Positions 325 through 23,730 of a DNA stretch of 25,337 nt are shown piece by piece. The DNA is taken from positions 1 through 25,337 of the IMG/VR virus record IMGVR_UViG_2698536560_000009. One strand, 5' to 3'. The position numbers were made by a program, and so were the translations under genes. The notes below the pieces were generated by a model. It saw only the letters and a program-made list of their open reading frames with translations. It had not been told where the DNA came from and did not search any database. Source of the DNA: a virus (taxonomy: Duplodnaviria; Heunggongvirae; Uroviricota; Caudoviricetes). Within the stretch, counting starts at the first letter, position 1, and every line of letters starts with the position of its first letter.

Positions 325-325
325 G

Positions 326-1359: not shown

Positions 1360-1360
1360 A

Positions 1361-1915: not shown

Positions 1916-1931
1916 ATATTTTCCTTATAAA

Positions 1932-1949
1932 GCCCACATGAATGTGGGC
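1932..1949 (-). terminator. intergenic hairpin downstream of the tape measure gene
   Basis: gcccaca / tgtgggc 7-bp stem with a 4-nt loop, between the tape measure stop and the next ATG. On the minus strand it is followed by UUUAUAAGGAAAA. It may be a partial terminator or an mRNA-stabilising hairpin. Confidence 0.25.
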
Positions 1950-1962
1950 ATACTGTATTTAC

Positions 1963-4224: not shown

Positions 4225-4225
4225 A

Positions 4226-4588: not shown

Positions 4589-4869
4589 TCAATTTCTTCA
4601 ATATTCATAGCTTCGGTAAAAATACGCGTGATTTCGGTATTAAGTTTGATTTGATAAACCATGTCAATTTCGCTCTCTACCTGTTCTGGTGATTTAAAAA
4701 GTTGTTTACCATTGGCATCAACTACACAGTAATGGATTGTAGTGTACGGGTCACTACATTCACTATACTTAGAAATAGCTGGAAGACGAATATAAACAGT
4801 AAACCCCGGAGCAAGTTCAAAGGCATGTTTTTTGACACCAATTGCTGTCATTAGATTAGATAGATCCAT
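4579..4869 (-). CDS. tail assembly chaperone (gpG-like)
   Basis: 96 aa acidic ORF between the tail tube gene and the tape measure gene. Ends ...EIEKK-stop with the final codons GAA AAA AAG TAA forming a classic slippery site. Confidence 0.6.
   Translation of the reverse strand: MDLSNLMTAIGVKKHAFELAPGFTVYIRLPAISKYSECSDPYTTIHYCVVDANGKQLFKSPEQVESEIDMVYQIKLNTEITRIFTEAMNIEEIEKK
4582..4588 (-). other. programmed -1 ribosomal frameshift slippery heptamer A_AAA_AAG (G to GT)
   Basis: The minus-strand mRNA reads GAA AAA AAG UAA in the G frame. After a -1 slip it reads AAA AAA GUA AGG... into the open T frame. Confidence 0.6.
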
Positions 4870-4901
4870 GTGTATTTTTTCCTTATTATGATTATTTTAT
4901 A

Positions 4902-5378
4902 TTATGGTTTTGCTGCAATTTCACCAACTGCTACAGGTTCGCCCGTGATTGTCATAACAAATTCACGTGTTGCTACAGCGTCAAAATCGCCACCGACAAC
5001 ATCAGAACTAATATAGCCATTAACTATCGAGTAATAACCCACTCCATCGGTATCAGCGATGTTTTCGTAATAAGTTACTTTTACCTGCATAAGCGTCTGT
5101 TTTTGAGCTGCGGTAACTAACATCTCTTGACCTACTGCCCCTGGTTTCCAGTTCACCGATAGGGTTAGATCTGGCACAGAACGAGATCCTAAAAGCTTCT
5201 GTGCGTACTGCTTACCAAATGTATTTACTGAGATAATTGTAGACTCAGCACCTGCTGCTGCCGGGAAAGCTGCAACTTCTTCAATTACTGTAAAAGTGGT
5301 TGCCTGACCACCACCTGCTGGTGCTTCTGCAATTTCTACTACAACGTTATTCGCTGCGAAAATTCGATTAAAAGCCAT
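4902..5378 (-). CDS. major tail tube protein (lambda gpV-like N-domain)
   Basis: 158 aa, immediately upstream of the chaperone genes. The pattern LTLSVNWKPG...NGY...GDFDAV..REFV resembles the gpV tube domain and is shared with the N-terminus of the 560-aa protein at 8288-9970. Confidence 0.55.
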   Translation of the reverse strand: MAFNRIFAANNVVVEIAEAPAGGGQATTFTVIEEVAAFPAAAGAESTIISVNTFGKQYAQKLLGSRSVPDLTLSVNWKPGAVGQEMLVTAAQKQTLMQVKVTYYENIADTDGVGYYSIVNGYISSDVVGGDFDAVATREFVMTITGEPVAVGEIAAKP

Positions 5379-5399
5379 TTTAATTTCCTTATTTAATTA

Positions 5400-5435
5400 G
5401 GGTAACGTCCTGTTACCCGTTTCCTTTTTTTATTT
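5400..5435 (+). terminator. hairpin plus T-run, oriented antisense to the late operon
   Basis: gggtaac-gtcct-gttaccc stem-loop (5400-5418) followed by gtttcctttttttattt on the plus strand. It lies between the 964-aa gene and the tail tube gene. Confidence 0.3.
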
Positions 5436-8324: not shown

Positions 8325-9970
8325 GTACTACCCCCGTCTACTGTGACAAACTGAAATACATCAGTAGAATCTTTTGTAAAGGTTAATACTGGAACACGCC
8401 CATAAGACCATAAAATGTTTGTAGGCCAGGATATTTTATTTGCCCCTGTACCCTGCTTAATAAGCACCTGAAATGTTTGACTCTTTTTGTCATTACCACT
8501 TGCATTTAGTACAGAGAAGTTTGACGTTGGTTGTGATAGAGTCACGGTGAATGTAGTTTTACTATCACTCAAATCTATTTCTAATGAATTATTTACAAGG
8601 GTATTTAGTTTAAGAATATCATCTACAATTGTTACCTTCGTATCAATATCTTCCTTCAGAACCTTGTCTTTGTCATCGATCTGTTTCTTTGAATATGTTC
8701 CTACATCATCAAAATTCAGTACTATATTACTGTTAAGAGCATACCCGTTAATAGTGGTGATACGTAGTGCAAATAGATCATTTGACTGGGTACGTGAGTA
8801 CACATCAGGAATATCAGCAGCAACTAATTGAATGTTAGTTCCTGATAATGGCTTATTGTTGATTAAGTATGTTTTTGGTACATATGTGTTATTAGTAAAA
8901 ACAATACTTGCCATATCTGGGAGTTGTGCGGCTGTCAGTGTTATATTCTGGGAAAGACTTAAACCGTTAACAGTAGTTGTTTTTTTAACAAATGAAGTAT
9001 CAACCTGAGTCTGTGAATACACATCAAGAATATCTGCGGCAACTAAGTTTAATGCCGTACCGGATAGTGCATGACCGTTTAACTGGAATACTTTTGGGAC
9101 TACGTTCTGATCTATATACGTCTTACTGTATACATCAGCGATATCAGAAGCCAGTAGTGTAATATTAGCAGTTAGTGGTTTGCTATTGATAGTACGGGTA
9201 ATCGGTACGTAGTCTGCAAGGGATGCACTTGATGCAGCACCCAGTTCTGTCAGTGTAGGTTTATCAGCACTGGTATAGACCTTGTACCATGCCCCCATAG
9301 ATGCACCATAGTTACGCACGTTAATTATTGGCGTACCTGTCTTACTGATAACCAATTGTGTACCAAAGTTCGAATCAAGGTTATTAATACCGAGTACATC
9401 TGTCCCTGTTGGTGAACCTGCACCAGGGATCTTAATAAAAGCATTACCGTCACGCCCCTGATAACTTGGAAACTCAATACCGTTTGCACCTACGCCCCAG
9501 TCTCCGCGATTTAGAGGGACTATCGTACTGTCAAGAATACCCGAAGAAAGTTGTTCGTTTGGGGTGAATACGTAGGAACGGGAAGTAACAGAATCATAAT
9601 CACCACTGGTGGATACAGAAGCCAGATAACCATTATAAAGTGCATAGTTAACCGTAAGGTCATTCTGTCCTTCATCGGGGATCTCTACCTTCATTTGTAC
9701 TAATTGGCGACTTTTTACGATGTCATCAAGAAACTTATGTTTAGCAGGAACCCAGTTAACCGTAATAGTGACATCACCATATGTGCTATCACCTGCTACT
9801 TTTTCGATGTATTCAGAGTCATATGTTTCAATAGCAAGGGTTGCAGTACTGTGACCGAATGAAGGGAACCCGCTTAATTCTGGTACTTCTTTAAATCCCT
9901 TCGATTTGGGGTCACTGTTTAATGTGTCGGTGTTAATCCATACACTTGTGTTGTTAGTAATAAAAGCCAT
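8288..9970 (-). CDS. tail protein with gpV-like tube N-domain and C-terminal tail-fibre-type repeats
   Basis: The first ~140 aa align by eye with the 158-aa tube protein (VNW.P, NGY, GDYD.V..R.YVFT). This is followed by about five ~37-aa repeats of the form (I/V)N(S/G)KPLSG.NI.L.AADI.DVYS.T, resembling the phage tail fibre repeat seen in side tail fibres. Confidence 0.5.
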   Translation of the reverse strand: MAFITNNTSVWINTDTLNSDPKSKGFKEVPELSGFPSFGHSTATLAIETYDSEYIEKVAGDSTYGDVTITVNWVPAKHKFLDDIVKSRQLVQMKVEIPDEGQNDLTVNYALYNGYLASVSTSGDYDSVTSRSYVFTPNEQLSSGILDSTIVPLNRGDWGVGANGIEFPSYQGRDGNAFIKIPGAGSPTGTDVLGINNLDSNFGTQLVISKTGTPIINVRNYGASMGAWYKVYTSADKPTLTELGAASSASLADYVPITRTINSKPLTANITLLASDIADVYSKTYIDQNVVPKVFQLNGHALSGTALNLVAADILDVYSQTQVDTSFVKKTTTVNGLSLSQNITLTAAQLPDMASIVFTNNTYVPKTYLINNKPLSGTNIQLVAADIPDVYSRTQSNDLFALRITTINGYALNSNIVLNFDDVGTYSKKQIDDKDKVLKEDIDTKVTIVDDILKLNTLVNNSLEIDLSDSKTTFTVTLSQPTSNFSVLNASGNDKKSQTFQVLIKQGTGANKISWPTNILWSYGRVPVLTFTKDSTDVFQFVTVDGGSTWYGSLLMADMK

Positions 9971-9973
9971 AAA

Positions 9974-10410
9974 TTATTCCCCATAGCTAAAAGATATAGT
10001 TTGTGTATGCACATACATCGTATTAGTTGCTTCGGCCTGGGTAGTCATTAAGCTCTCTTCCAGAACAACATTGAAAACATCCATTGGAAGTAGTTTGTTC
10101 AATTCATTAATAAAACCACTTGCATAGATTGCATCAATCACTTTACTAATTTCATCTGATGCAAGTTTATAATTTTCGCCTACTGCTACAAAGTCCACTC
10201 TAAATTCACAGAGATAATTAATCCCACGTGGTATTAATTGACCATTAATTAATGTATTTGCTTTTTGAATGCGTGAACGTGTTACAGTACTGTCACCGAT
10301 GTATAACATTGGTTTGTCGTCTACCGTTGCTCTCGATTGATATTGAAGATTTACCAAAGTACTGAGATTATTAATCAAAAATTTCCGTATTGTGTAGTCT
10401 GAAGTTCGCA

Positions 10411-10411
<1 letters not shown>
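9974..10411 (-). CDS. putative neck / tail completion protein
   Basis: 145 aa ORF between the capsid gene and the tail genes, with TAATG start/stop overlap to the upstream gene. Assigned by position only. Confidence 0.3.
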
Positions 10412-12554
<2,143 letters not shown>

Positions 12555-13998
12555 GGGTTAGTACTGGTGAATAGCCCATCTCAGAAATTATTTGTTCTTT
12601 ACTCTTTAATCCATTTTCCATTGCGAGAATCTCAGTCTGTAAATCTTTCAGTGGGTCTAGACTAATATGACGTTGTGGAATGAAATTACATTCAGTTAGT
12701 TCAGTAAATTTACTAAATGGCAAATCCTTCAACATCGGGTTATTTAGCATTTCATTCTTGAGCCACTTAATATACAAAGGTTGAAGTACTGACTTAACCA
12801 GGTTGTTTTGTTTTGCAAGAAATGTATTTTGCTGAATTTTGTCTGTTAACTTCGAGGCACTGAATGATGCCCCTGCGGTCGAACCTGTTAACGTCTGTGG
12901 TGTAAGATCGAGTGACATCCCTATGAAAATCAACTGGTTATCTAGAAATTCCTGTAGTGCGTCGAATGTTTGTGATGGACTGAGTGACTTCACATCTTGA
13001 CCCTCACGAAGTTCTAACAGTACTCCACCCTCCATACGTGCAACCTGGTATTCATCTACATCAGAATCGTCATCATCATCAATATCTTCAAATGATGCAT
13101 CACGTGACGCATTCGTGATAAAACCCATGCTTTCCGCTGCTAATTGTCGCGTCTTGATTGACGCCCTCATGAATTTATCCAGGTCTGCCAGTAGTCCAGT
13201 ACCGCAAAATATATCGGGAATGCCGCGTTGCTGTTCTGGATAGTCAGTACTGAATAAGTGAAGGATCTCTTCTGCGGGTACACGTTCTGCTTCAGTACTA
13301 ACTGAGTACGATACGGGGTCATATTGTGTTAGAAAGTAAGCAACGGGTTTACCAGTGCCTTTTTCAAACTCAATACCATTTGAACGATAGTTACCATTAC
13401 TTAGCCATTGATTACCTTTCGTATCAATTACAGTACTGTCTAGTACTTCAATCTTCATACCAGGATGGATACGAATAAAACAACTACCATCAATTGAACG
13501 TGTCTTCTCTACCAGTGACTGGAATTTGGACATTTCAAGTTTTCCATTTAGGGAAAAACGTGCGGGGTCTTCACACCATGAGTAGAACGCATCGGCGAGA
13601 CGTTTATTAATATCATTATTAACATTGTCATCTTCAGCAACGTGAACACATGGACGATACGTAATACCATTTGCACCACATACACTACTGGCATTCTGTG
13701 CAATATACTTCTTATGAATTGGGTTACTCATACTAAGCTGGCGACTTTGTAGTACTGCCGTGTTCAATACACGGTTAATTACGGCATTGATCGAGCCACT
13801 CTTACCAACTGCACCAAATGTACCAAGTTGTGCGGCTGCGTTACCGTTACCGATGGAAGAAATGGAACGTTTGGTTTCAATACCTAAATTACCAAGTACT
13901 GGTTCAGTACGTATTTTTGCCTTACCAATATATAGTTTTGGTTCTTCTTTTGGCTGTTCCTTTGCCTTTCTAAAATTAAAATTAAACATATTCCCCTC

Positions 13999-14475
13999 TT
14001 ATCTTGTAAAACGTGTAATTGATTTGATGGGGTTGCCCGTCTTAACTTTTCGTACACGTGCCTTTTCATCTGCAAGTTTCTTTGCATATACTTGTCGCAT
14101 ACGGTAAAGTACTTCAGCACTTTCTGTTACTAGTGTTTTATTATTAATGGTAAGTTGTGTAGTACCACCCCCAAGAATCTTGGATTCAATAACCATATCA
14201 ATTTCATCGATCAATTCCTGTAACTGATTTATTTTATTTGCTGCTTCAAGTGGATCTTTAACAGTGAAAAGTTGTACAGACATACTACCATCGCTAATAA
14301 TTGCAGTACTGACACCAGCTACCCATTGAGATGTATCAATGGGTAAATTTGGAAAGTATTCTTGCTCATTACCTTTTGCATCAATGATTTTAATCGTTGC
14401 TGTTGATGGGAAGTCTAGTACTATAGTTTCACCAATAAAGATCGGGCTAGTTAAGTCCGTCTTACGTGGATTCAT
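13999..14475 (-). CDS. hypothetical head protein (gpW position between terminase and portal)
   Basis: 158 aa ORF with ATG at 14473-14475, lying between the large terminase and portal genes. No motif recognised. Confidence 0.35.
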   Translation of the reverse strand: MNPRKTDLTSPIFIGETIVLDFPSTATIKIIDAKGNEQEYFPNLPIDTSQWVAGVSTAIISDGSMSVQLFTVKDPLEAANKINQLQELIDEIDMVIESKILGGGTTQLTINNKTLVTESAEVLYRMRQVYAKKLADEKARVRKVKTGNPIKSITRFTR

Positions 14476-14487
14476 ATTAATTCCTTA

Positions 14488-16407
14488 TTAAAACCAGTTA
14501 CGATTATTAAGTGCTGAAAGTCCTTTTTTCTTAGGTTTTGATTTCTGCTTCTCTTTCTGTACTGGTTGTTGTTCTGCTTTAGTTTTTATGGATTCTTCTA
14601 CTTTAGTATTTAGTTCTTTTTGTTTAGCTCTATACTCTCGCAACTTCCTATACGGTTGTGCACCAAGTGCCTGTATCTTGTGATCAATCGCTGCTAATGA
14701 GTAGACGAGCGTATCGAGACATTCGTTACGCTCTCCATTTGGATTCTCCCATACCATCACTGAACCTTTTCGTACTAGTTTTTCTGCTGTAAGTTGGAGG
14801 AAGTAATCATCGACAAGGGAATGACTGAAGTGTATATTAGTACTATACTCTCCCCCTTCACATGCCTGTCGTAATAACTTCTTAACCTGGTGCTTCAGTA
14901 CTTGAGTATTAATATTAACCAGTTGATGTCCTGCCGTTGTGGAATCCTTCGTGATGGGACCAGTCTGTGTGTTTGCACCCTTAATTGCATGCCATCGTCC
15001 CCCACTGGAAGAACAAAAGCGATATATGGAACTGGTTGCAGATCCGTTTGAGCTATCAATAAAGGATCTCAGTACTGGTACTTTTCTACCTGAAGTGGTT
15101 TTAAATATACTCTTACTATAATTAAGTAGTTCAGTATATGCCTTATCTTCATACTTAGTACAATCGACACCATAAAACATACGGTGGTCCAGAACCCATA
15201 TATTCTTTTCATCAAATGCAATAGTACTACATTCTAAGCGGTCTATCTGTTGGTCACATGCCAGTACAATACCAAGTGCATTATCTGGAATATGTTTTAC
15301 ATCTAAATCAAAGTCGCGTAAGTTTTCCAGTACTGTAAGATCTTCTTTAATATTATTCTTATCTACCCACGGTAAACCGAGTACGTTATTATAGAAAGAT
15401 TGTTCTTCAAAGTTTATCCATGAGTTCTTAAAGTCTTCAACAATCTTCTCAATAGTAGTAATCGGTGAATATAGTCTATTAACATGGTATCCCCTGAAAC
15501 CCATCACATGCAGTCTGTGTGCTTTCCAGTAACCTTTTGCAACCATCCGTGCACGTTGCCCTTCAGTGATTACTTCATCACATCCTGGACAGTGTAGGCG
15601 TGCTGTAGTGGGTTCTGGTGCATTACGTCGTTCGTTGAACTTCACCCATTCAAACTTTATATTCTCCCATTCTAAAATATGGTCATGATCACAATGTGGA
15701 CACACGACATGAAAATGTCTCTGGTCTGAGAGTTCCCATTGCTGGCAGATCATATCGTCCTGTACTAATGGTGTGGAGGCCATCACGATCAGGGAGTTCT
15801 TACCAAACTGAGTTGCACGCTGTTCTATGAGTGATAGGGGGTTGCCCTCATCTTGTTCTGGATCTACACCTGATAATTCATCAATGAAGATTGCAGGAAC
15901 TGTAAGCGAGCGTAGGGACTGGCTAGAATTGAGGTTAACAAAGTATGTCTTAGTACCGTCAACGTTCTGTTGAGTGTGTAGATCGTTTACTGCATTCTTA
16001 TCTGATTTGTCAGTGATTAATGCTTGAAGGTTTGGACACGCATTAATAGTATCCATCCATTTACCAGTACGGAACTTTTTCACAGTACTACCACTACTAC
16101 CCGCAAATATCATATGGGAGGGTTTATTTGCCATCCTGTAAAGCATTGCATTTTGTAGTATTGTTGTCTTGAGTAATTGTGCACTACTCATTAAACAGAT
16201 CTTCTGTACTGATGGATCTACTGTGGCGTTTAGGGGTTCTACTTGAAATGAAAATAATTTAGTTTTTTGTTGTGCCAGTGGTCCATCTGGAAATACAGTA
16301 TATTGTTCACACCATTCAGATGGTTTAATCTTCGGTGGGGGTAATATTGATTTCAGACTCTGGTTCAGAATCTTCATCATCTTCTTCTGGCTGTTCTTCG
16401 TACTCAT
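14488..16407 (-). CDS. terminase large subunit (lambda gpA-like)
   Basis: 639 aa. Contains Cys/His clusters (CPHCDHDH, HCPGCDE) and an acidic IFIDELSG segment typical of gpA-family terminases. Follows a Nu1-like small subunit gene. Confidence 0.8.
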   Translation of the reverse strand: MSTKNSQKKMMKILNQSLKSILPPPKIKPSEWCEQYTVFPDGPLAQQKTKLFSFQVEPLNATVDPSVQKICLMSSAQLLKTTILQNAMLYRMANKPSHMIFAGSSGSTVKKFRTGKWMDTINACPNLQALITDKSDKNAVNDLHTQQNVDGTKTYFVNLNSSQSLRSLTVPAIFIDELSGVDPEQDEGNPLSLIEQRATQFGKNSLIVMASTPLVQDDMICQQWELSDQRHFHVVCPHCDHDHILEWENIKFEWVKFNERRNAPEPTTARLHCPGCDEVITEGQRARMVAKGYWKAHRLHVMGFRGYHVNRLYSPITTIEKIVEDFKNSWINFEEQSFYNNVLGLPWVDKNNIKEDLTVLENLRDFDLDVKHIPDNALGIVLACDQQIDRLECSTIAFDEKNIWVLDHRMFYGVDCTKYEDKAYTELLNYSKSIFKTTSGRKVPVLRSFIDSSNGSATSSIYRFCSSSGGRWHAIKGANTQTGPITKDSTTAGHQLVNINTQVLKHQVKKLLRQACEGGEYSTNIHFSHSLVDDYFLQLTAEKLVRKGSVMVWENPNGERNECLDTLVYSLAAIDHKIQALGAQPYRKLREYRAKQKELNTKVEESIKTKAEQQPVQKEKQKSKPKKKGLSALNNRNWF

Positions 16408-16846
16408 ATGATCCTAATTCCCTTAGTTTCTCATCAATCCTTTCTTCTAGTTTTATCCGCAATGTATCCGCATCTTCACTTTCAAATAGTTCTACATAGA
16501 TAGATGCCGGAATACTTCTTAGTACTCCGCGTAGTGCTGCAAAATAACCAGTTAGTGTTTGAGTTACATAATCAGTACTCAATACCTTTTCAGTACTGAT
16601 ATTTAATTCAATCTCAACTAAATCTGCTTCAAGTGATATCTTGCGTAATTTCTCTTTTTCAATCTGTTCTTTTACATCAGTATTTCGCAATGGTTGGATA
16701 ATATTAATTAGTATCCATTGATCTATTTCTTTTTTACTTGCTTTCTTTGGGTGTGGCATTCCACGTTTTGCCCATTCACGGCTTACAGTACTGTCATTAA
16801 CTCCCATACGTTCTGCAATTTCGTTTGTTGTATATCTATCGTTCAA
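16325..16846 (-). CDS. terminase small subunit (lambda Nu1-like, N-terminal HTH)
   Basis: The N-terminal TNEIAERMGVNDSTVSREWAKRGMP resembles the Nu1 winged-HTH (…IRTIQNWQEQGMP), and the C-terminus is acidic. The start codon at 16844-16846 is TTG; the first in-frame ATG would truncate the HTH. Confidence 0.6.
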   Translation of the reverse strand: MNDRYTTNEIAERMGVNDSTVSREWAKRGMPHPKKASKKEIDQWILINIIQPLRNTDVKEQIEKEKLRKISLEADLVEIELNISTEKVLSTDYVTQTLTGYFAALRGVLRSIPASIYVELFESEDADTLRIKLEERIDEKLRELGSYEYEEQPEEDDEDSEPESEINITPTED

Positions 16847-16904
16847 TTTGTTTATCCAGGTTTTGTTTGTGTTATTTAAAATATTTAATATGCAAAAAAA
16901 ATAG

Positions 16905-16915
16905 TTCGCGGCGAA
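16905..16915. other. GC-rich near-palindrome TTCGC-G-GCGAA, candidate cosN-like site
   Basis: An isolated GC-rich symmetric element in the AT-rich region about 60 bp upstream of the Nu1-like terminase start. It resembles the GGCGGCGA core of lambda cosN. A 7-bp inverted repeat acttccc/gggaagt lies at 16915-16921 and 16940-16946. Confidence 0.25.
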
Positions 16916-16952
16916 ACTTCCCGATTGTGTCTATTCAGAGGGAAGTACCTAT

Positions 16953-16981
16953 AGTATTTATTAACCCTACCATGTTATACT
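16953..16981 (+). promoter_or_regulatory. candidate sigma70-type promoter with extended -10 (TGtTATACT) for the SLATT-NTase operon
   Basis: TG at 16973-16974 and TATACT at 16976-16981, about 30 nt upstream of the ATG at 17011. The -35 is weak. Confidence 0.3.
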
Positions 16982-17010
16982 GTTAGGGAATCGGATTTGT
17001 TGGAGTGTTT

Positions 17011-17514
17011 ATGAATCAGAAGCTCATCCAAACAGTCATTTCTGAGTGTCATCGTATAGAAGAGGACGCTCTTTACTCTTCTAAATCTCATTATAATGTT
17101 TCTGATAGATGGGATAAGCTGAATCTGTGGTTCGGTGTACCATTAGCAATCTTAACCGCTTTGAGTGGTATTGCCGCAATCAAGAGTACAGCCAATGCTG
17201 TTGTAGCTATTTCCATAACTGCTACAATTCTAACTGCATTAAATACGTCTCTTAACCCAAGTAAGCGTGCTGCACTTCATAAATCAGCAGCAAATGAATA
17301 TAATAAATTAAAGAATGAAGTTAGAATATTTAGGGAAATATTGACTTCTAATTTTGATTTTACTGATAAAACTTTGATTGAAAAACTTACGAGTTACTCT
17401 GATCGACGCAATCAACTTAATTCAAGTTCGCCAAATATTCCTCGGTGGGCTTATGAGAAAACTCAAAGAGATGTTAACCAAGGCTTTACTAAGTATAATA
17501 TTGACAAGGAATAA
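17011..17514 (+). CDS. SLATT-like two-transmembrane effector protein
   Basis: 167 aa from the ATG at 17011 (GGAG 6 nt upstream; the ORF track begins at a GTG at 17005). Two adjacent hydrophobic helices (LWFGVPLAILTALSGIAAI and AVVAISITATILTALNTSL) are flanked by short soluble regions. The stop lies 2 nt before the NTase start. The family call rests on architecture and on the SMODS neighbour. Confidence 0.45.
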   Translation: MNQKLIQTVISECHRIEEDALYSSKSHYNVSDRWDKLNLWFGVPLAILTALSGIAAIKSTANAVVAISITATILTALNTSLNPSKRAALHKSAANEYNKLKNEVRIFREILTSNFDFTDKTLIEKLTSYSDRRNQLNSSSPNIPRWAYEKTQRDVNQGFTKYNIDKE

Positions 17515-17516
17515 AC

Positions 17517-18293
17517 ATGACAGTCAGTACCTATCTTGAGTCTATTAAAAGCAATGCTTATCAAAGAGATATTACAATAACGAATTCAATTGCAACCATA
17601 AAAAACAGACTGAATGGTTATTTTGCTGGTGAACTTGTTAGTCATTTTGTATTTGGCTCATATTCACGTAATACAATGCTTCCTCGTAGCTATGATCCTT
17701 CTTCTGATGTTGATTATATGGTTGTATTCAAAAATGTAATATATCAGCCTCAGACCTACCTAAACAAGCTAAGGGGTTTTGTAAATTATTACTATCGTAC
17801 ATCTGAAATAAAGCAAAGCCACCCTACTATTCAATTGAACCTTAATCATATTACTTTCGAGCTTGTCCCTGCATCTCATAATATTTTATTTGGTTATCAA
17901 ATCCCTTCCAACCAGGATTTTTTGAACCGTTGGATGAATACCGATCCCAATGCGTTCAATACTGATTTAACTAATTGCAATAAAAATAATAACAATTTAA
18001 TTAAGCCTCTTATTCGCATAATGAAATATTGGAATGCCAATGCAGGTTATGTCTTTGAGTCGTATCAACTTGAAAAAGATATTGTTAGCTTTAACTATTT
18101 TTGGTGCTCTACCCTTAAAGAATATTTTTACTCTGCTGTAGAACAACTTTCAGGTTCCTATTATCTCGCACAATGGAAAAAAGATAAGATTCAGCGTCTA
18201 AAAAATTCAGTTATGATGTCAAAATATTATGAGCAGTTAAACAATCATTTTGCCGCCGAAAATGAAATAAAGAAAATTTTACCCATAAAATAA
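17517..18293 (+). CDS. SMODS / CD-NTase-like nucleotidyltransferase (Pol-beta superfamily)
   Basis: 258 aa. Carries the GS-x15-DVD signature (FGSYSRNTMLPRSYDPSSDVDYMVVF), a downstream acidic ITFELV, and a LIRIMKYW motif like the OAS/cGAS-type helix. AAGGA Shine-Dalgarno 8 nt upstream. Confidence 0.6.
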   Translation: MTVSTYLESIKSNAYQRDITITNSIATIKNRLNGYFAGELVSHFVFGSYSRNTMLPRSYDPSSDVDYMVVFKNVIYQPQTYLNKLRGFVNYYYRTSEIKQSHPTIQLNLNHITFELVPASHNILFGYQIPSNQDFLNRWMNTDPNAFNTDLTNCNKNNNNLIKPLIRIMKYWNANAGYVFESYQLEKDIVSFNYFWCSTLKEYFYSAVEQLSGSYYLAQWKKDKIQRLKNSVMMSKYYEQLNNHFAAENEIKKILPIK

Positions 18294-18298
18294 TCTTG

Positions 18299-18326
18299 CC
18301 CCCTTATATTACTAATTATAAGGGGG
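18299..18326. terminator. perfect 10-bp stem hairpin immediately after the NTase gene
   Basis: cccccttata - ttactaat - tataaggggg, starting 6 nt after the stop at 18291-18293. A U-rich tract follows on the minus-strand side, so it may act bidirectionally. Confidence 0.4.
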
Positions 18327-18540
18327 TACAGCTCATTGTCTTTGCTTGAATCCAAAAAATCATTCTCGATATTTTTACTTGTAAGAATTGAGTACAGTTG
18401 AAACATTCCACCGTCGTACAGCTAAATGAGATTGCTAAGATTGTATGACCCGCTCCTCTACCATCAGTATCAGGAGATTACATTCCCTTATCGCTAAAGA
18501 TAGCAGTTTTGTGAGAAGAGATAGTTTCCAATTTCTAATT

Positions 18541-18567
18541 TATAAGCCAGTTAGTTGCTGGCTTATA
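18541..18567 (-). terminator. hairpin 4 nt downstream of the tail-anchored protein gene
   Basis: tataagccag - ttagttg - ctggcttata, a 10-bp stem. There is no clear U-run. Confidence 0.3.
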
Positions 18568-18571
18568 ATCA

Positions 18572-19246
18572 TCATGATTTAACAGATACTAATGCCAGAA
18601 TAGATGCTACTGCGGCAGCCAACGAAACTATAAGACTTAATGTAGGTATATATAATGCTGTAACTCTTCTAAACTTGTTCTCTTTGTCGTTATACTGAAT
18701 AAAAAACATCTTAATTTTCAGTAAGCGGATTAAAATTAAATCTTTTAATGCGGCCTTGTGTAAAACACCTGTAACACGGTGATAATGAAGTAAATTCTTT
18801 ACTGCTTTCTCTATTTTTTTTGGTGTTATGTGTTTAACGTTATATGAATGATGGACAATCAAGGAATCATGTGTTGCTAATGAATCATCTGAAGTAGACG
18901 GAAAAAGAATTATATGCACAGCCCCCGTCGCACTATATGTAATTGAAAGTGCGGCTCCTTTTTGCCAATGATGATTAAACTTTATGCTTTCGGTAGTTTT
19001 TTCCTGCCGCATATTTCCAGTCATACGATCAGCGATCTGAAATGTCAGGCAATCAAAACCATAACCATCTGGTTCATCTTGCATATCAATTATATTAAAT
19101 CTTATATGCTCTCCTGATAATTGGGTTGATAGTATTTCTAATTGCTTTTTTATTTTAGGTTTGAATATAATCCAGTTTACATTAGAAATTAATCTTCTAA
19201 GTTCGTCTCTTTCAAACTTTGCTCTAAGCTCTTTCTTCCACTCCAT
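18572..19246 (-). CDS. hypothetical tail-anchored membrane protein
   Basis: 224 aa with a GGAG Shine-Dalgarno and ATG at 19244-19246. A soluble His-rich domain is followed by a single C-terminal transmembrane helix (LYIPTLSLIVSLAAAVASILALVSV). Sits alone on the minus strand between hairpins. Confidence 0.5.
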   Translation of the reverse strand: MEWKKELRAKFERDELRRLISNVNWIIFKPKIKKQLEILSTQLSGEHIRFNIIDMQDEPDGYGFDCLTFQIADRMTGNMRQEKTTESIKFNHHWQKGAALSITYSATGAVHIILFPSTSDDSLATHDSLIVHHSYNVKHITPKKIEKAVKNLLHYHRVTGVLHKAALKDLILIRLLKIKMFFIQYNDKENKFRRVTALYIPTLSLIVSLAAAVASILALVSVKS

Positions 19247-19569
19247 TATCTCCCCCTAAGCCTCTTGCTACTATAGATTATTTAGATTCTATCGTACCAT
19301 AATTGATAAACTTACCCTAGGTCGATAATCAATAGTATATGTATGTTCTATTTGGTGGTAAAGTGTTAATGCTACATGGTATAGGCTATAATGATGATTA
19401 CTCATAAAATCAATTCTTATATCGATATTTTCAGTTTATTATCGCAGTTTGAGTATTCGTCCATGTATAAGTTTGCATAAAAAATAGCACACTGGTTAGA
19501 GTAAAATCATATTGAACATTGTGTTTGAATGCTCTATATTTTGGTGATGTTAACTTTTGAGATTGCAGA

Positions 19570-20373
19570 ATGAAATTTGTCTCTGAAAGAATTGACCATG
19601 TAAAAATAGCTAATGGATATTGTGTAATATGTGGTAATTTTGGCAAATTAAAAAAAGACCATGTTCCCCCGCAATGTGCATCTAAACCTTCACCTATGTT
19701 ACAAAAAACGATTTCTGAGTATTTCTCTAATACTCGAGTACCACCAATTAAAGCAAAAAGCGGGACAACTTTTCGTACCATTTGTCACAATTGTAACTCG
19801 AATATTTTAGGATCAATGGATGCAGAAATAGGCCGTGTTACAACTGAATTCATCGAAAAGTTAAATGATTATTTTAGTGGTAAGTTCTTTTACAAAAATT
19901 ATATTTCATTAAAATTTGATGCGGATAAATTTCTAAGAGCAATGATTGGACACCTTCTGGCTGCAACTTCAGTAAAAGATTGTATGAAGCCTATTGTTGA
20001 TAGTCCTTTTTATACTCCATTGAGAAATTTTGTATTAGGCAGGAATCCAGACATTGGGGCAACTCATAATATTTACTATTGGTTTTATCCATTCAGAAAA
20101 CAAATTACTGCTCAGTCAGTTACATTCTACAATAATGGACATCATAGTATATGTTCTTGCTTACATTTTTTCCCAATATCTTTTTTGGTTACACTGAAGG
20201 AGCAAGGAACATTTCCTATTCATGCAACTGAAATGACTCAATATGATCAATCTCTTCATTTTAATATGACAACGGCTAATATTGATTATGCTTCATTTCC
20301 CTTTGTAGGTTTAAAGAATAATCAATTTATGATGGTAATTTCTGGTCATACTTGTGTTAGTTATCCTAAATGA
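19570..20373 (+). CDS. HNH-motif (His-Me finger) nuclease-like protein with uncharacterised C-terminal domain
   Basis: The N-terminus contains C-x2-C ... DH ... C-x2-C-N (CVICGNFGKLKKDHVPP ... TICHNCNSN). The spacer is longer than in the canonical HNH motif. The C-terminal ~180 aa are unrecognised. Confidence 0.5.
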   Translation: MKFVSERIDHVKIANGYCVICGNFGKLKKDHVPPQCASKPSPMLQKTISEYFSNTRVPPIKAKSGTTFRTICHNCNSNILGSMDAEIGRVTTEFIEKLNDYFSGKFFYKNYISLKFDADKFLRAMIGHLLAATSVKDCMKPIVDSPFYTPLRNFVLGRNPDIGATHNIYYWFYPFRKQITAQSVTFYNNGHHSICSCLHFFPISFLVTLKEQGTFPIHATEMTQYDQSLHFNMTTANIDYASFPFVGLKNNQFMMVISGHTCVSYPK

Positions 20374-20400
20374 TTTTCAACTAAAGGTTGAGAAATATAG

Positions 20401-20445
20401 ACATAAGAACATAAGAACATAAGAACATAAGAACATAAGAACATA
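20401..20445. repeat. tandem octanucleotide repeat (ACATAAGA) x 5.6
   Basis: acataaga x5 then acata, in the intergenic region between the HNH gene stop (20373) and the next gene (20591). Confidence 0.9.
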
Positions 20446-20457
20446 GTCCAACTGTTC

Positions 20458-20519
20458 AGCGACACGTCCCACACACACCAACTAAACAAACCTACCCTTT
20501 ATGAGTGGGGCGTGTCGCT
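20458..20519. repeat. GC-rich inverted repeat with 15-bp arms (one mismatch) and a 32-nt CA-rich spacer
   Basis: agcgacacgtcccac (20458-20472) pairs with gtggggcgtgtcgct (20505-20519); the spacer is acacaccaactaaacaaacctaccctttatga. Confidence 0.8.
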
Positions 20520-20590
20520 AATAGTTTACGCCAGAATGGTTATTATGGTAAAGTTCATTTTTCACTTTGATATATTGGATTTCTAAAAAA

Positions 20591-21142
20591 ATGGAAGCTG
20601 AAACCATTACACAACTCATTGCAGTCGGTGGTACTTTAGGCGGTGCATTAATAGCTGCGGGTGTAACATTGGCAAGCCAATTAATCACTAAAAAATATGA
20701 GAACGAAAAACTAAAAAAACAACTTTTATTCAAAATACTCGAAGATGAATTAAAAGAAAAAAAGCAAACTATTAAACCTTTCATTCAGTTTATTAATTCT
20801 TTGAATCTTCCAGAAAATTTTAATTTTTATGATGATGGTGATCTTTTAGATCAAATTATGCTTTATAAACAGGATTTAATTAAAAGTAAAGCAAGTGACT
20901 TCCTTCTCGATTATACATTATACATGACACCACAAATTCACGATGCGATTTGGACGGTTACTAATGCTATAAATGATTTTGAAGAATTGGGAGCACGGTT
21001 TTATGATTCATCATTGAGTAAACAAGAAAACGATGAAATATTACTTAGAAATTGTAGCGGTAAGCCAACTGAAATTTGGGAAGCTTTGATGAAATTGAAA
21101 GGCTTGCTCTATAGTGAAGTTAACATAGCTGATAAATTATGA
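20591..21142 (+). CDS. hypothetical membrane-anchored coiled-coil protein
   Basis: The ORF track starts at a TTG at 20567; the first ATG is at 20591. An N-terminal transmembrane helix (LIAVGGTLGGALIAAGVTLASQLI) is followed by a K/E-rich helical domain. The stop overlaps the next gene's ATG as ATGA at 21139-21142. Confidence 0.5.
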   Translation: MEAETITQLIAVGGTLGGALIAAGVTLASQLITKKYENEKLKKQLLFKILEDELKEKKQTIKPFIQFINSLNLPENFNFYDDGDLLDQIMLYKQDLIKSKASDFLLDYTLYMTPQIHDAIWTVTNAINDFEELGARFYDSSLSKQENDEILLRNCSGKPTEIWEALMKLKGLLYSEVNIADKL

Positions 21143-21840
21143 ATATAAAAACTATAAACTCTACTCTTGTCGGCATTGTTGCAGTACTTCTGTTTTTAGC
21201 AGTCTTAGTACTCGTTAAGGTTCTATTCGCTGGTAGCAGGGGGTTTGAATGGGGGAACGCAGCTGATTTAACAAGTGCGTTATGCAATATCGTGATTGCG
21301 TCTACAGCTCTTTGTGCTGCTTTTGTAGCAAATAATTGGTTCGTTCAGAATAAAAAATTAAAATCCCTTTCTACCTCACATCAGTTGGCTATGAAATTTG
21401 AGATGCAGTTATGGGAAATAAATTCACGTTTATATAATGATGGTATAGTTCGTGCTTCCATCAGGAAATATGTTCAGGATAATAAAGAACTGACAGATGA
21501 AATAAAATCTAAAGTTGCTGCTGAAATTAATAAAAAGGCCACAAGTGATTTATCTGAACTTGCTAAGCTATATACGACAAGGTCAATGCTAGCCAGGTTT
21601 GATATTAAGTTAAGCGAACGGCTTGAAAATTTATTTAAAAATATATTAGAGTTAAGGCAGTCATATTTAGACAATCAATATATATATCTATTGACCATAT
21701 GCAAACATATTAATTGCCCCAAGCATGAGGACGTAATTGCAGCTACAGAAAATCTTGAAAGTGTTAAAAGAGAGCTAGCTGCCATATTTCAGTACGAGCT
21801 ATGTGAAACAAATATTGATACTGATTATTCGTTCAGCTAA
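21139..21840 (+). CDS. hypothetical 2TM membrane protein (paralog A)
   Basis: 233 aa with an N-terminal hydrophobic hairpin (LVGIVAVLLFLAVLVLVKVLFAGSRGFEWG, then LCNIVIASTALCAAFVANNWF) and a soluble C-terminal domain. The N-terminus is about 35% identical by eye to that of the 22818-23561 protein. Confidence 0.5.
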   Translation: MNIKTINSTLVGIVAVLLFLAVLVLVKVLFAGSRGFEWGNAADLTSALCNIVIASTALCAAFVANNWFVQNKKLKSLSTSHQLAMKFEMQLWEINSRLYNDGIVRASIRKYVQDNKELTDEIKSKVAAEINKKATSDLSELAKLYTTRSMLARFDIKLSERLENLFKNILELRQSYLDNQYIYLLTICKHINCPKHEDVIAATENLESVKRELAAIFQYELCETNIDTDYSFS

Positions 21841-21877
21841 ATTTATAGTTAATTGATGTAAATAAAAAGGAAAGCTT

Positions 21878-22699
21878 ATGCTTGGGGAGTCATTTAATCA
21901 ATTCATGGTAGAGTCTTATTTGTCCAGTACCTCAATAGGTGGTGGGCTTACTGCTGTGCGGAAATGTAGAGCACATGATAAAGGTAGCTTCTATAGCAGC
22001 TTCTTTCAATTATCAATTGGCATAGAAAGGTTTTTTAAGATTATCTTCATACTCAATCATATGATCGAAAATAATCTTGAGAAGCCAGACTTCCGTACAC
22101 TTAAAAAATTCAGCCATAATATTGCGGAGCTTCATAAAAACTGTTCAAGCTATGGTGCTAGCCATTTACCCAATTTGGAGTGGGAATTAAACTGGCAGCA
22201 AAACCTCATATTAGAAATGCTTTCTGAATTCGCTGATGCTTCAAGATATTATAATCTTGATAAAATTGTAAAAGGCAAAAAAGAAGTCAAAGATCCGTTA
22301 GCACAGTGGAACGAAATAATTAATTCTTGCTTCCGTAAACACATTACTGATTCTAGAAAACAAAAACTAGAAAGAGAATTAAATTTATGGGCCGACAAAT
22401 ACAAAGCATACGGTTACACCTGGAATAGAGGTCTTGATGGTGCGATTTTAAGCCAAATTGATGAGTATATACTTTCCTGGAAAGTAATAAACGTTTCACC
22501 TTATATTGTGTTTGAAATCATTGATATGTTGCAGCCTTATTATTATCTAATTTCTAAATTTAAAGATGATATTGACAACATTGAGCACAGTAAAGGGATA
22601 AGAGAACCTCTGGTTCCATATCTCCATGAGATATTTGTATTTCTACTTGTCCATAAGAAGTTAGCTTTGAGTAGAAAAACATGGAGTTTCCGTTATTAA
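21878..22699 (+). CDS. hypothetical soluble protein flanked by the two 2TM paralogs
   Basis: 273 aa with an AAGGA Shine-Dalgarno and ATG at 21878. An R-x4-H (RKCRAH) motif lies near the N-terminus, but no confident family assignment is possible. Confidence 0.45.
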   Translation: MLGESFNQFMVESYLSSTSIGGGLTAVRKCRAHDKGSFYSSFFQLSIGIERFFKIIFILNHMIENNLEKPDFRTLKKFSHNIAELHKNCSSYGASHLPNLEWELNWQQNLILEMLSEFADASRYYNLDKIVKGKKEVKDPLAQWNEIINSCFRKHITDSRKQKLERELNLWADKYKAYGYTWNRGLDGAILSQIDEYILSWKVINVSPYIVFEIIDMLQPYYYLISKFKDDIDNIEHSKGIREPLVPYLHEIFVFLLVHKKLALSRKTWSFRY

Positions 22700-22735
22700 T
22701 TACATGGACATGTATCACATTATTAATCAGAGAGG

Positions 22736-22753
22736 CACTAATCATGATTAGTG
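22736..22753. promoter_or_regulatory. 18-bp perfect palindrome cactaatcatgattagtg, candidate operator upstream of 2TM paralog B
   Basis: Perfect dyad in the 118-bp gap between the genes at 21878-22699 and 22818-23561. Confidence 0.35.
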
Positions 22754-22817
22754 GAATATATATCCATCAATGCTACATATATACATCTATGTCTTTTATT
22801 TAAGAAATGAGATTAAC

Positions 22818-23561
22818 ATGCTTAATATTAAAAAATATAATTTAATACTACTAAGTACCGTACTATTACTGCTGCTAATTGCTATATTAGTTGGTGTAAA
22901 AATATTATTTTCTGGTTCGAAAGGATGGGAGTGGGTAACTTTAATTGGAACATTATGTAGTGCTGTAGGTACATTAGGTACACTATGGGTAGCCTACCAA
23001 GCATACCTAAAAGCACCTGAATGGTTGTCGCAAAAACATTATGATGTAGTATATGGTGTTATTGAGAAAGCAATTTATCAAGATCTTAATAAAGTACGTA
23101 CTTCAACCTTAATTTTAAAACATCAATTAGTGACATTCTCCAAAAAATATCGCAATCATTTAAAAAACGAGACCATACCCCAAGATTCACATGATGAGTT
23201 TATGAAGGAAACAGATGCTCTTGTTTCCGATTTATTCTTCACTTCTTACTCCGTTATTAATTCCTTAAAATCTATTGATAGAACTAATTATGCTTTAAGC
23301 GAATACACAAAAAACATTATTGCTGAACTTAAATTAAATATTGATGAATATAACGGACTGAGTATCGATTTCTATATTGCAAGTTCTGAGGTTCCTGCAC
23401 TTATACAGGCCGATGAATGTGTGAGGGATCAAACTAGTAGTGAGCTTTTCGTTATACAGTCAAAAGCAATTTCACTTCACAATAAGATTTCATCTTTCAT
23501 AAAAGATATATATGATGATAACTATCCAATTGATAACTTCATAACTCTAAAGAAAAAATGA
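22818..23561 (+). CDS. hypothetical 2TM membrane protein (paralog B)
   Basis: The likely start is the ATG at 22818 (MLNIKKYNLILL...); the ORF track begins at 22770. The N-terminal hairpin LILLSTVLLLLLIAILVGVKILFSGSKGWEW matches paralog A (shared VK.LF.GS.G.EW). Confidence 0.5.
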   Translation: MLNIKKYNLILLSTVLLLLLIAILVGVKILFSGSKGWEWVTLIGTLCSAVGTLGTLWVAYQAYLKAPEWLSQKHYDVVYGVIEKAIYQDLNKVRTSTLILKHQLVTFSKKYRNHLKNETIPQDSHDEFMKETDALVSDLFFTSYSVINSLKSIDRTNYALSEYTKNIIAELKLNIDEYNGLSIDFYIASSEVPALIQADECVRDQTSSELFVIQSKAISLHNKISSFIKDIYDDNYPIDNFITLKKK

Positions 23562-23696
23562 TTAATACCCTATCTTGCAAACCTATTAAGTTTGTAGAAT
23601 TACTGATGACTTAATAGAAAAAGTCATACTTGATTCAAAATCATTAAGGATGCATATTAAAGAAACGTTTACATTTCCCAAATAAGCATCAGTTCT

Positions 23697-23730
23697 AAAA
23701 CACCGGATTTATCATTGCATCTGGTGTTTT
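23697..23730. terminator. hairpin at the convergent junction of the plus-strand island and minus-strand small genes
   Basis: aaaacacc / ggtgtttt 8-bp stem with an 18-nt loop. The right arm overlaps the last codons of the 66-aa ORF. Confidence 0.25.

What the first reader, a model, noticed from the sequence alone, without database searches (positions are those of the whole stretch)
18572..19246. Orphan tail-anchored membrane protein between the CBASS-like pair and the HNH gene
A well-supported minus-strand gene (GGAG Shine-Dalgarno) encodes a 224-aa protein with a soluble His-rich domain and a single C-terminal transmembrane anchor. It is flanked by hairpins on both sides and looks like an independent single-gene cassette, possibly an exclusion or immunity factor.
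Basis: inference. Interest (0 to 1): 0.35.

Follow-up and report, generated by a model that had tools for sequence, protein, structure and literature searches.

The report
Orphan tail-anchored membrane protein, defence-island cargo
A real single gene in an E. coli prophage island encodes a membrane protein anchored by its C-terminal end; its uncharacterised family travels alone between anti-phage defence islands, but a 2026 study tested this same gene and saw no protection against 24 phages.

Summary
The ORF at 18572..19246 (-) is a real gene. It encodes a 224-aa protein, is under purifying selection, and has a GGAG ribosome-binding site and a 3' hairpin. No 5' hairpin was found, and the His enrichment is not conserved in the family.

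The protein has a roughly 185-aa cytoplasmic alpha/beta domain and one C-terminal TM helix. The family has 74 clusters at 50% identity. It has no Pfam, PADLOC, PHROG, NCBIfam or PDB-sequence match. A pLDDT-92 model has no Foldseek match in the PDB.

It behaves as a stand-alone mobile cassette with no conserved partner gene. In independent genomes its direct neighbours are CBASS, Old, SIR2-HerA, Uzume plus a PLD nuclease, type I R-M plus Schlafen, and AbiL plus PDC-S15. In Pseudomonas lambdoid prophages it sits between Q and the holin.

It is not a spanin, a holin or a CBASS effector.

DefensePredictor (Science 2026) lists this protein (WP_000454879.1, working id "VANC") as a predicted novel defence gene with log-odds 9.46. 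Cloned with its native promoter region in MG1655, it gave no protection against 24 coliphages.

Best reading, held at low-to-moderate confidence: a narrow-spectrum, membrane-acting exclusion or abortive-infection factor of a new family.

The parts
18572..19246 (-). CDS for the 224-aa C-tail-anchored membrane protein. It is 99% identical to WP_000454879.1 / UniProt B7LD23 of E. coli 55989, and its DNA is 100% identical to that encoding WP_244566648.1 of strain N61.
   Evidence: ORF and translation. Homologues. dN/dS 0.10-0.16. Annotated as a hypothetical protein in RefSeq.
19250..19256 (-). Shine-Dalgarno-like GGGGGAG, 3 nt upstream of the ATG.
   Evidence: Read directly from the sequence.
18692..19246 (-). 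Codons 1-185, the predicted cytoplasmic alpha/beta domain. It comprises a long N-terminal helix (residues 3-43), a seven-stranded antiparallel sheet (50-134) and two helices (142-159 and 167-183).
   Evidence: AlphaFold2 model built on the 40-sequence alignment: pLDDT 92.4, pTM 0.81. Model numbering is protein numbering minus 1. Conserved motifs are NW (W25), TG (G77), E-x-G-A-x-L (G97, L100) and G108.
18581..18661 (-). Codons 196-222, the C-terminal transmembrane helix. It is preceded by the conserved juxtamembrane motif KF-R..ALYIP and carries a stripe of small residues (S204, A211, S215, A218).
   Evidence: Hydropathy. Conservation. Helical-wheel angles of 40-100 degrees for the four conserved small residues. 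The tail anchor is a family hallmark.
18540..18568 (-). Terminator-like hairpin directly after the stop codon: an 11-bp perfect stem with a 7-nt loop, and no clear U-tract.
   Evidence: MFE -14.2 kcal/mol, z = -3.8.
17005..18293 (+). Neighbour (context only): a convergent type I CBASS operon, made of a SLATT 2TM effector and a SMODS cyclase. Its own terminator lies at 18299-18326.
   Evidence: PADLOC matches: 2TM effector 2.2e-70 and cyclase 3.5e-113. Pfam SMODS 4.9e-31. Hairpin z = -4.2.
19570..20373 (+). It belongs to PHROG 21495 and is WP_001609855.1.
   Evidence: PHROG match 1.3e-94, family of unknown function. Pfam HNH_5 only at E = 0.036. Tested as 'PDP1' and marked not defensive.
20567..21840 (+). 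Neighbour (context only): a two-gene operon of TM proteins. Its products match WP_000387046.1 and WP_001022716.1 apart from a few substitutions; that pair is the experimentally validated defence system DS-13.
   Evidence: Accessions from the 55989 annotation. Table S6, TMO1 = DS-13, defensive TRUE; protein sequences in Table S8.

Best explanation
This is a stand-alone, horizontally mobile cargo gene of defence islands and prophage moron slots. It encodes a C-tail-anchored inner-membrane protein of an uncharacterised family.

Shown here:
- The gene is real and under purifying selection.
- The product has a roughly 185-aa alpha/beta domain followed by one TM helix that ends 2 residues before the C-terminus. 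There is no signal peptide, so the domain is predicted to face the cytoplasm.
- The TM helix and its basic juxtamembrane motif are conserved more strongly than a passive anchor would need. Four conserved small residues lie on one helix face.
- The gene moves by itself between islands and repeatedly lands next to known anti-phage systems.

Inferred:
- The cytoplasmic domain recognises a phage-derived protein or state.
- The TM helices then self-associate through the small-residue face.
- The outcome is either a compromised inner membrane (abortive infection) or a membrane-level block of a phage step (exclusion).
- The phage range is narrow and was not covered by the 24 coliphages already tested.
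For: Gene reality.

Architecture:
- Hydropathy.
- AF2 model with pLDDT 92.4.
- Conserved ALYIP plus small-residue stripe.

No membership of a known family. No Foldseek match in the PDB or BFVD.

Autonomy:
- It is on the opposite strand to both neighbours, and its own hairpin and the CBASS terminator lie between it and the CBASS operon.
- No partner gene is shared across 17 loci.
- It is about 70% identical in prophages whose TerL is 42-44% identical and whose other island genes are almost all different.

Defence context in independent loci:
- CBASS in the window.
- Old nuclease in Serratia, 1e-75.
- SIR2 plus HerA in Mangrovibacter, 3e-155 and 4e-253.
- UzuA (5e-53) plus a PLD nuclease.
- Type I R-M plus a Schlafen/AlbA_2 protein on a Pseudoalteromonas plasmid.
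- AbiL (7.5e-60) plus PDC-S15 in an integrase-bearing element.

Retention: in the E. coli genomes examined that carry it, the island is kept while the phage structural genes are gone.

Independent machine-learning call: DefensePredictor log-odds 9.46 against a cut-off of 4, with no remote homology to known defence proteins (HHblits log-odds -2.35) (PMC13092281, Table S6).
Against: - The direct test was negative. The 99%-identical allele, cloned with its native promoter region on low-copy pCV1 in MG1655, gave no reduction of plating by 10-fold or more and no small plaques for any of 24 diverse coliphages. The neighbouring DS-13 from the same contig scored positive in the same screen.
- Guilt by association is weak for genes that simply hitch-hike in variable islands. 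Two other genes of this island also have high scores and tested negative.
- Nothing in the sequence identifies a sensing or pore-forming activity.
- One E. coli strain carries the gene split by an IS without obvious consequence.
- In Pseudomonas lambdoid prophages the homologue lies in the late operon just upstream of the holin, which also fits a phage-serving role.
Confidence: 0.4

Rival explanations
1. It is a phage-serving or neutral 'moron', not a host defence. It would be a membrane protein expressed by the prophage for its own benefit, or simply tolerated cargo with another membrane-related role. Examples of a self-serving role are modulating lysis timing, excluding only close kin at genome entry, or altering envelope physiology in the lysogen.
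For: - The published phage challenge was negative.
- In two Pseudomonas lambdoid prophages the homologue lies between antiterminator Q and the holin, on the late-gene strand.
- Other copies sit at prophage edges or next to IS elements with no defence gene nearby.
- Most copies are phage-borne.
Against: - The Serratia, Mangrovibacter (L016) and Pseudoalteromonas-plasmid copies show no phage genes in the loci examined and lie directly next to defence systems.
- E. coli strains kept the island after losing the phage.
- The slot between Q and the holin is a classic moron site (established knowledge), so that position alone does not imply a lysis role.
Confidence: 0.33
2. It is a component of a multi-gene system with a neighbour. 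For example, it could be a second membrane effector or regulator of the adjacent CBASS, or a partner of the divergent 267-aa Cys-rich protein. On this view it tested negative because it was cloned alone.
For: - It is immediately adjacent to CBASS and shares a 323-bp divergent intergenic region with the 267-aa gene.
- The whole island is inherited as a block in 87-88 E. coli genomes.
- The DefensePredictor authors note that wrongly drawn system boundaries can cause false negatives.
- In L010 and L026 a 155-aa gene follows on the same strand, 18 bp downstream in L010.
Against: - No neighbour family co-occurs with it outside closely related prophage islands. CBASS, the 267-aa protein and the 155-aa protein are all absent from most other loci.
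- It is convergent with CBASS, with two hairpins between them.
- PADLOC effector models do not match it.
Confidence: 0.08
3. It is a known type of phage lysis or membrane protein (holin, antiholin or spanin). This was the refutation the first reader named.
For: It has a single TM helix, is encoded in a prophage, and Pseudomonas homologues lie next to a holin gene.
Against: - No Pfam or PHROG lysis family matches any of 40 diverse members.
- At 224 aa, with a large structured cytoplasmic domain and a 2-residue periplasmic tail, it cannot span the periplasm as a spanin does. Its N-terminus is charged and has no lipobox (read from the sequence).
- In the window it lies in the cargo island between the small terminase and the recombinase, and no endolysin was recognised among its neighbours.
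- It occurs in chromosomal and plasmid loci where no phage genes were seen.
Confidence: 0.04
4. It is a spurious or decaying ORF with no function.
For: The region is AT-rich (33% GC), where long ORFs arise easily. One strain has an IS insertion in the gene.
Against: - 74 clusters of similar architecture were found.
- dN/dS is 0.10-0.16.
- The AF2 model is confident.
- The gene is intact in 87 of 88 E. coli carriers.
Confidence: 0.02

Closest known systems
DefensePredictor candidate 'VANC' (WP_000454879.1), DeWeirdt et al., Science 2026, PMC13092281
   Same: It is the same protein: 99% identical, 224 aa, from the same island on ECOR contig NZ_QOYF01000062.1. It is classed as 'Predicted novel defense gene' with log-odds 9.46.
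   Different: Nothing differs in the molecule. That study reports only the prediction and a negative 24-phage assay. It gives no family description, topology, structure or context analysis.
Prophage-encoded single-protein membrane exclusion factors (T4 Imm, P22 SieA, HK97 gp15). This comparison is from general knowledge and was not tested here.
   Same: They are stand-alone, prophage- or phage-borne inner-membrane proteins that act without partner genes, typically with a narrow phage range.
   Different: No sequence or fold relationship was found. As I recall, those proteins are anchored N-terminally or span the membrane several times, and act at the periplasmic face or in the channel. This protein has almost all its mass in the cytoplasm and only a 2-residue external tail.
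Membrane effectors of nucleotide-signalling defence systems (SLATT/2TM, Cap15, PycTM)
   Same: They combine a soluble beta-rich or ligand-binding domain with TM helices. One such system, SLATT plus SMODS, is the direct neighbour here.
   Different: The domain order is reversed, with the soluble domain first and a single C-terminal TM helix. No PADLOC effector model matches. There is no linkage to a cyclase outside E. coli.
Bacterial C-tail-anchored proteins such as ElaB, YqjD and YgaM (from general knowledge)
   Same: The topology class is the same: a cytoplasmic N-terminal part and a single TM helix at the extreme C-terminus.
   Different: Those are roughly 100-aa helical, ribosome-associated stress proteins (DUF883). 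This protein has a 185-aa alpha/beta domain, no Pfam match, and a mobile, island-borne distribution.

Membership tests
C-tail-anchored membrane protein (topology class) | A single TM segment within about 30 residues of the C-terminus, with no N-terminal signal peptide or other TM segment. | tested here: met
   Only one segment in the window protein has a KD19 score of 1.6 or more (residues 204-222, score 2.46, 2-residue tail); the N-terminus is charged. 53 of the 57 family members with a clear TM segment have it within 15 aa of the C-terminus. AF2 predicts a helix at residues 188-223.
C-tail-anchored membrane protein (topology class) | Experimentally shown membrane insertion with the N-terminal domain in the cytoplasm. 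| not testable with these tools
   This needs fractionation, or PhoA/GFP fusions, or protease accessibility assays.
CBASS effector | Encoded in one operon with the CD-NTase/SMODS cyclase and co-inherited with it. | tested here: not met
   It is on the opposite strand, convergent, with two hairpins in between. The cyclase is absent from all 16 other loci compared.
CBASS effector | Homology to a known effector family (2TM/SLATT, 4TM, Cap15, patatin, and others). | tested here: not met
   No PADLOC or Pfam hit for the protein or for 40 family members.
Spanin | An i-spanin has an N-terminal TM helix plus a periplasmic coiled coil. An o-spanin has a lipoprotein signal. Both are encoded in the lysis cassette. 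| tested here: not met
   The TM helix is C-terminal with a 2-residue tail, and the charged N-terminus has no lipobox (read from the sequence). No endolysin was recognised among the neighbours. No PHROG match.
Holin | A small protein (about 70-150 aa) with one to four TM helices and a charged C-terminal tail, adjacent to an endolysin, matching holin families. | tested here: not met
   It is 224 aa with a large folded soluble domain. No holin Pfam or PHROG match. It is not in a lysis cassette in the window. Pseudomonas homologues lie next to, but are distinct from, a Phage_holin_3_1 gene.
Anti-phage defence gene (operational definition) | Recurrent co-localisation with known defence systems in unrelated genomes. 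| tested here: met
   Its direct neighbours are CBASS, Old, SIR2-HerA, Uzume plus PLD, type I R-M plus Schlafen, and AbiL plus PDC-S15 in separate contexts. This is qualitative only; no genome-wide statistic was computed. DefensePredictor log-odds is 9.46.
Anti-phage defence gene (operational definition) | Heterologous or native expression reduces phage plating or plaque size. | not testable with these tools
   The published test was negative: MG1655 pCV1-VANC against 24 coliphages, defensive = FALSE (PMC13092281, Tables S6 and S11). The authors caution that negatives may reflect the phage panel, the host or expression.

The most novel reading that the evidence does not exclude
The protein founds a new family of single-chain, C-tail-anchored phage sensors. 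On this reading a cytoplasmic alpha/beta domain, of a fold with no detectable match in the PDB, recognises a specific phage cue. It then drives TM-helix clustering through a conserved small-residue stripe, which collapses the membrane or blocks a membrane-associated phage step. Immunity would be narrow-range and was missed by the published 24-phage screen.
Probability: 0.25. Interest if true: 0.55.

Novelty: new variant of a known kind. Interest (0 to 1): 0.3.

Why it matters
If the family does act against phages, it would add a minimal, one-protein, tail-anchored architecture with an unmatched fold to the set of membrane-acting immunity factors. It would also show that a high-scoring DefensePredictor negative was a false negative caused by the phage panel.

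In practical terms, the gene is now better defined for follow-up:
- It acts, or fails to act, on its own.
- It is not part of the adjacent CBASS.
- Its TM helix has a testable interaction face.

If it is not defensive, it is a useful example of how variable-island cargo inflates predictions based on guilt by association and on machine learning.

Tried and rejected
Searches that found nothing:
- Curated libraries. Pfam, PADLOC, PHROGs and NCBIfam gave nothing for the protein. Pfam, PADLOC and PHROGs also gave nothing consistent for 40 diverse members.
- PDB by sequence profile: nothing meaningful.
The best E-values were 0.096 and 0.42 (PDB) and 0.019 (BFVD), with TM-scores of 0.28 or less.
- tblastn against 50,697 phage records: no match. 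Against plasmids: one distant Pseudoalteromonas hit.
- Rfam over 16800-20600: no RNA family.
- Literature search by accession in main texts: nothing. The hit came only from supplementary tables.

Ideas tested and dropped:
- A remnant of the 155-aa gene that follows the homologue in L010 and L026 might lie in the 278-bp spacer 3' of the gene. It does not.
- The rare long members (P0033, P0045, P0051, P0076) might carry an informative fused domain. They do not.
- A His-rich metal site. Rejected because the His residues are not conserved.
- An amphipathic interfacial role for helix 167-183. Rejected because its hydrophobic moment is only 0.08.

Full report
**Observation**

The minus-strand ORF at 18572..19246 starts at ATG, encodes 224 aa and has no upstream in-frame start. 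GGGGGAG lies 3 nt before the ATG.

Hydropathy shows one strong segment at the extreme C-terminus. The KD 19-mer score peaks at 2.46 for residues 204-222, only 'KS' follows, and the flank before it is basic (KENKFRR). The N-terminus is highly charged and not signal-like. So 'tail-anchored, N-in' is what the sequence predicts.

A perfect 11-bp-stem hairpin at 18540-18568 directly follows the stop codon (z = -3.8). The 5' region folds no better than shuffled sequence (z = -0.64 and +0.80). The second strong hairpin, at 18299-18326, terminates the convergent CBASS operon (z = -4.2). 'Hairpins on both sides' is therefore only half right.

His makes up 4.9% of residues, but no His is conserved family-wide. 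Promoter-like hexamers are at chance level. No Rfam family lies in 16800-20600.

**Where the window comes from**

The island 16800-23700 is 100% identical to E. coli N61 and 99.7% identical to 55989 and about 85 other complete genomes.

In N61 it is part of a prophage integrated beside yggS by a large serine recombinase. The cargo island lies between the small-terminase gene and the recombinase. GC content is 33% in the island and 40% in the phage structural region.

Among the 15 of 91 matching complete genomes listed in the spread sample, only N61 keeps the structural genes. All the others listed keep the island plus a roughly 440-bp stub of the large terminase gene. In 55989 an IS100 element lies directly next to that stub.

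The gene itself is present in 88 of 5,426 complete E. coli genomes. It is always at least 99% identical and always in this island. In one strain it is split by ISVsa5.

**The gene is real and defines an unannotated family**

- A word-indexed search of 5.8 billion proteins found 15 clusters. They come from E. coli, Serratia and Dryocola/Cedecea at 66-70% identity, plus a 47-51% group. The genome scan added Buttiauxella at 67% and assigned the 51% group to Mangrovibacter.
- An exhaustive HMM search of 1.84 billion cluster representatives found 74 members at E below 1e-3. Nearly all are 205-245 aa.
- Of 72 full-length members, 57 have a clear hydrophobic segment. In 53 of these it ends within 15 aa of the C-terminus.
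- Three members continue for 100-250 aa beyond the TM helix, but those extensions match no Pfam family.
- dN/dS is 0.10 (L013 against L015) and 0.13-0.16 (the Mangrovibacter group).
- Nothing in Pfam, PADLOC, PHROGs or NCBIfam matches the protein, and Pfam, PADLOC and PHROGs give nothing consistent for 40 diverse members.
- A profile search of all PDB sequences found nothing.

**Structure**

With the 40-sequence alignment, AlphaFold2 gives pLDDT 92.4 and pTM 0.81. I omitted Met1 from the query by mistake, so model numbering is protein numbering minus 1.

In protein numbering the elements are:
- helix 3-43;
- seven beta-strands between residues 50 and 134;
- helices 142-159 and 167-183;
- a lower-confidence linker;
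- helix 188-223.

Among close relatives the juxtamembrane and TM region is strikingly conserved (KF-R..ALYIP). The conserved small residues S204, A211, S215 and A218 fall within a 60-degree arc of the helical wheel. That pattern is typical of helix-helix packing faces. This last point is my inference.

**Autonomy and context**

- The gene is on the opposite strand to both neighbours.
- Related prophages have TerL at 42-44% identity and small terminase at 41-48%. They carry the gene at about 70% identity in the same slot between recombinase and terminase. Of the other island genes, the tblastn comparison found only a weak partial match to the 233-aa DS-13 protein in one locus. The wider clustering added homologues of two more island genes (the 191-aa and 263-aa proteins) in some prophage loci.
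- Clustering all ORFs from 17 loci found no family that accompanies the gene outside closely related islands.

Its immediate neighbours in separate contexts are:

| Context | Neighbour(s) |
|---|---|
| The window (E. coli) | Type I CBASS |
| Serratia chromosome | P2-Old-like nuclease (1e-75) |
| Mangrovibacter phragmitis | SIR2 plus HerA (3e-155, 4e-253) |
| An IMG/VR prophage | UzuA (5e-53) and a PLD nuclease |
| Pseudoalteromonas plasmid | Type I R-M plus a Schlafen/AlbA_2 protein |
| Integrase-bearing element | AbiL (7.5e-60) and PDC-S15 (6e-29) |
| Dryocola and Buttiauxella prophages | An HNH protein with a weak type IV restriction match |

Other copies lie at a prophage edge or next to IS elements. 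In two Pseudomonas lambdoid prophages the copy lies between antiterminator Q and the holin, on the late-gene strand.

**Literature**

Accession searches of main texts found nothing. The supplementary tables of DeWeirdt et al., 'DefensePredictor' (Science 2026, PMC13092281), do list this protein.

Table S6 has working id VANC = WP_000454879.1. This is the allele annotated in 55989. It lies on ECOR contig NZ_QOYF01000062.1 at 8499-9173. The entry gives:
- DefensePredictor log-odds 9.46, against a cut-off of 4;
- HHblits log-odds -2.35;
- category 'Predicted novel defense gene';
- defensive = FALSE.

The strain was MG1655 pCV1-VANC. The plasmid is low-copy pSC101 with no vector promoter and carries the native promoter region. 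It was challenged with 24 diverse coliphages. A positive was scored as a 10-fold or larger EOP reduction or smaller plaques.

From the same contig:
- the two-gene TM operon corresponding to window 20567-21840 (TMO1) was positive and is named DS-13;
- the 267-aa gene (PDP1, window 19570-20373) was negative;
- the 273-aa gene (COAT, window 21878-22699) was negative.

The authors state that negatives may validate with other phages, hosts or system boundaries.

**Interpretation**

Four things are solid:
- It is a real, conserved gene.
- Its product is predicted to be a C-tail-anchored protein with a cytoplasmic alpha/beta domain.
- It moves as a stand-alone cassette.
- It is recurrent cargo of defence islands and prophage moron slots.

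It is not a spanin, a holin or a CBASS effector; the defining features were tested and not met.

Its function remains inferred. I favour a narrow-range, membrane-acting exclusion or abortive-infection factor (confidence about 0.4). The reasons are the repeated defence neighbourhoods, retention of the island after phage decay, the independent high machine-learning score, and a TM helix conserved beyond what anchoring needs.

The published negative assay and the position between Q and the holin in Pseudomonas keep a phage-serving or neutral moron role nearly as likely (about 0.33). A multi-gene role with a neighbour is unlikely because no partner is conserved (about 0.08).

**Novelty and score**

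The family is undescribed in curated libraries and has an unmatched fold. However, the general kind, an orphan membrane protein in a defence island, is familiar. This exact gene has already been flagged and tested, with a negative result. Interest is modest (0.3).

Noticed in passing
window 20567-21142 and 21139-21840 (+): This overlapping two-gene operon of TM proteins corresponds to WP_000387046.1 and WP_001022716.1 (a few substitutions apart). That pair is the experimentally validated defence system DS-13 (working id TMO1) in DeWeirdt et al. 2026. PADLOC v2 and Pfam do not recognise it.
   Followed up: partly
window 17005-18293 (+), hairpin 18299-18326: A complete type I CBASS is present: a SLATT 2TM effector (PADLOC 2.2e-70) and a SMODS cyclase (3.5e-113). 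A strong terminator hairpin follows it (z = -4.2).
   Followed up: partly
It belongs to PHROG 21495, a family of unknown function (1.3e-94). It was tested as DefensePredictor candidate PDP1 and was not defensive. The 273-aa gene at 21878-22699 (candidate COAT) was also negative.
   Followed up: partly
window 1-16400 compared with E. coli genomes; L022 (55989): In the genomes examined among roughly 88 E. coli carriers, all except N61 have lost the phage structural module. They retain the cargo island plus a roughly 440-bp stub of the large terminase gene. In 55989 the island is bounded by IS100 and IS3. In N61 an IS3 interrupts the region corresponding to the 964-aa ORF at window 5430-8324, which is intact in the window.
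   Followed up: partly
window about 19057-19074 (codons 58-63, PDGYGF): E. coli alleles carry in-frame indels at a GY repeat: DGYGYGFD (226 aa, P0002) and DGFD (222 aa, P0003), against DGYGFD here. This looks like slippage in a loop of the beta domain.
   Followed up: no
window 22770-23561 (+); L013 6254-6967 and 8885-9634; L015, L024, L026: The 263-aa N-terminal-TM protein has only weak library matches (NCBIfam SLATT_1 E = 0.088). Its family recurs in these prophage islands, sometimes as two copies flanking the target homologue.
   Followed up: no
L018 2342-5803, L019 3110-3736, L020 788-3025: The distant subfamily (P0063, P0091) is convergent in all three loci with a protein of more than 1,100 aa that has no Pfam or PADLOC match. 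This could be a subfamily-specific partner.
   Followed up: no
L008 7292-7666, L014 7277-7954, L013 10238-10747, L015, L024, L026; L010 9961-10713, L014 5000-5875: Small EAL-domain proteins (Pfam EAL 2.6e-14 in L014) and 8xMP (PF24838) membrane proteins recur within about 3 kb of the target homologue in several islands. Neither is present in the window.
   Followed up: no
E. coli EM06-18-14 (NZ_CP063479.1), hits H12 and H56: In this strain the target gene is split by an IS4-like ISVsa5 insertion. The gene is therefore dispensable in at least one strain.
   Followed up: no
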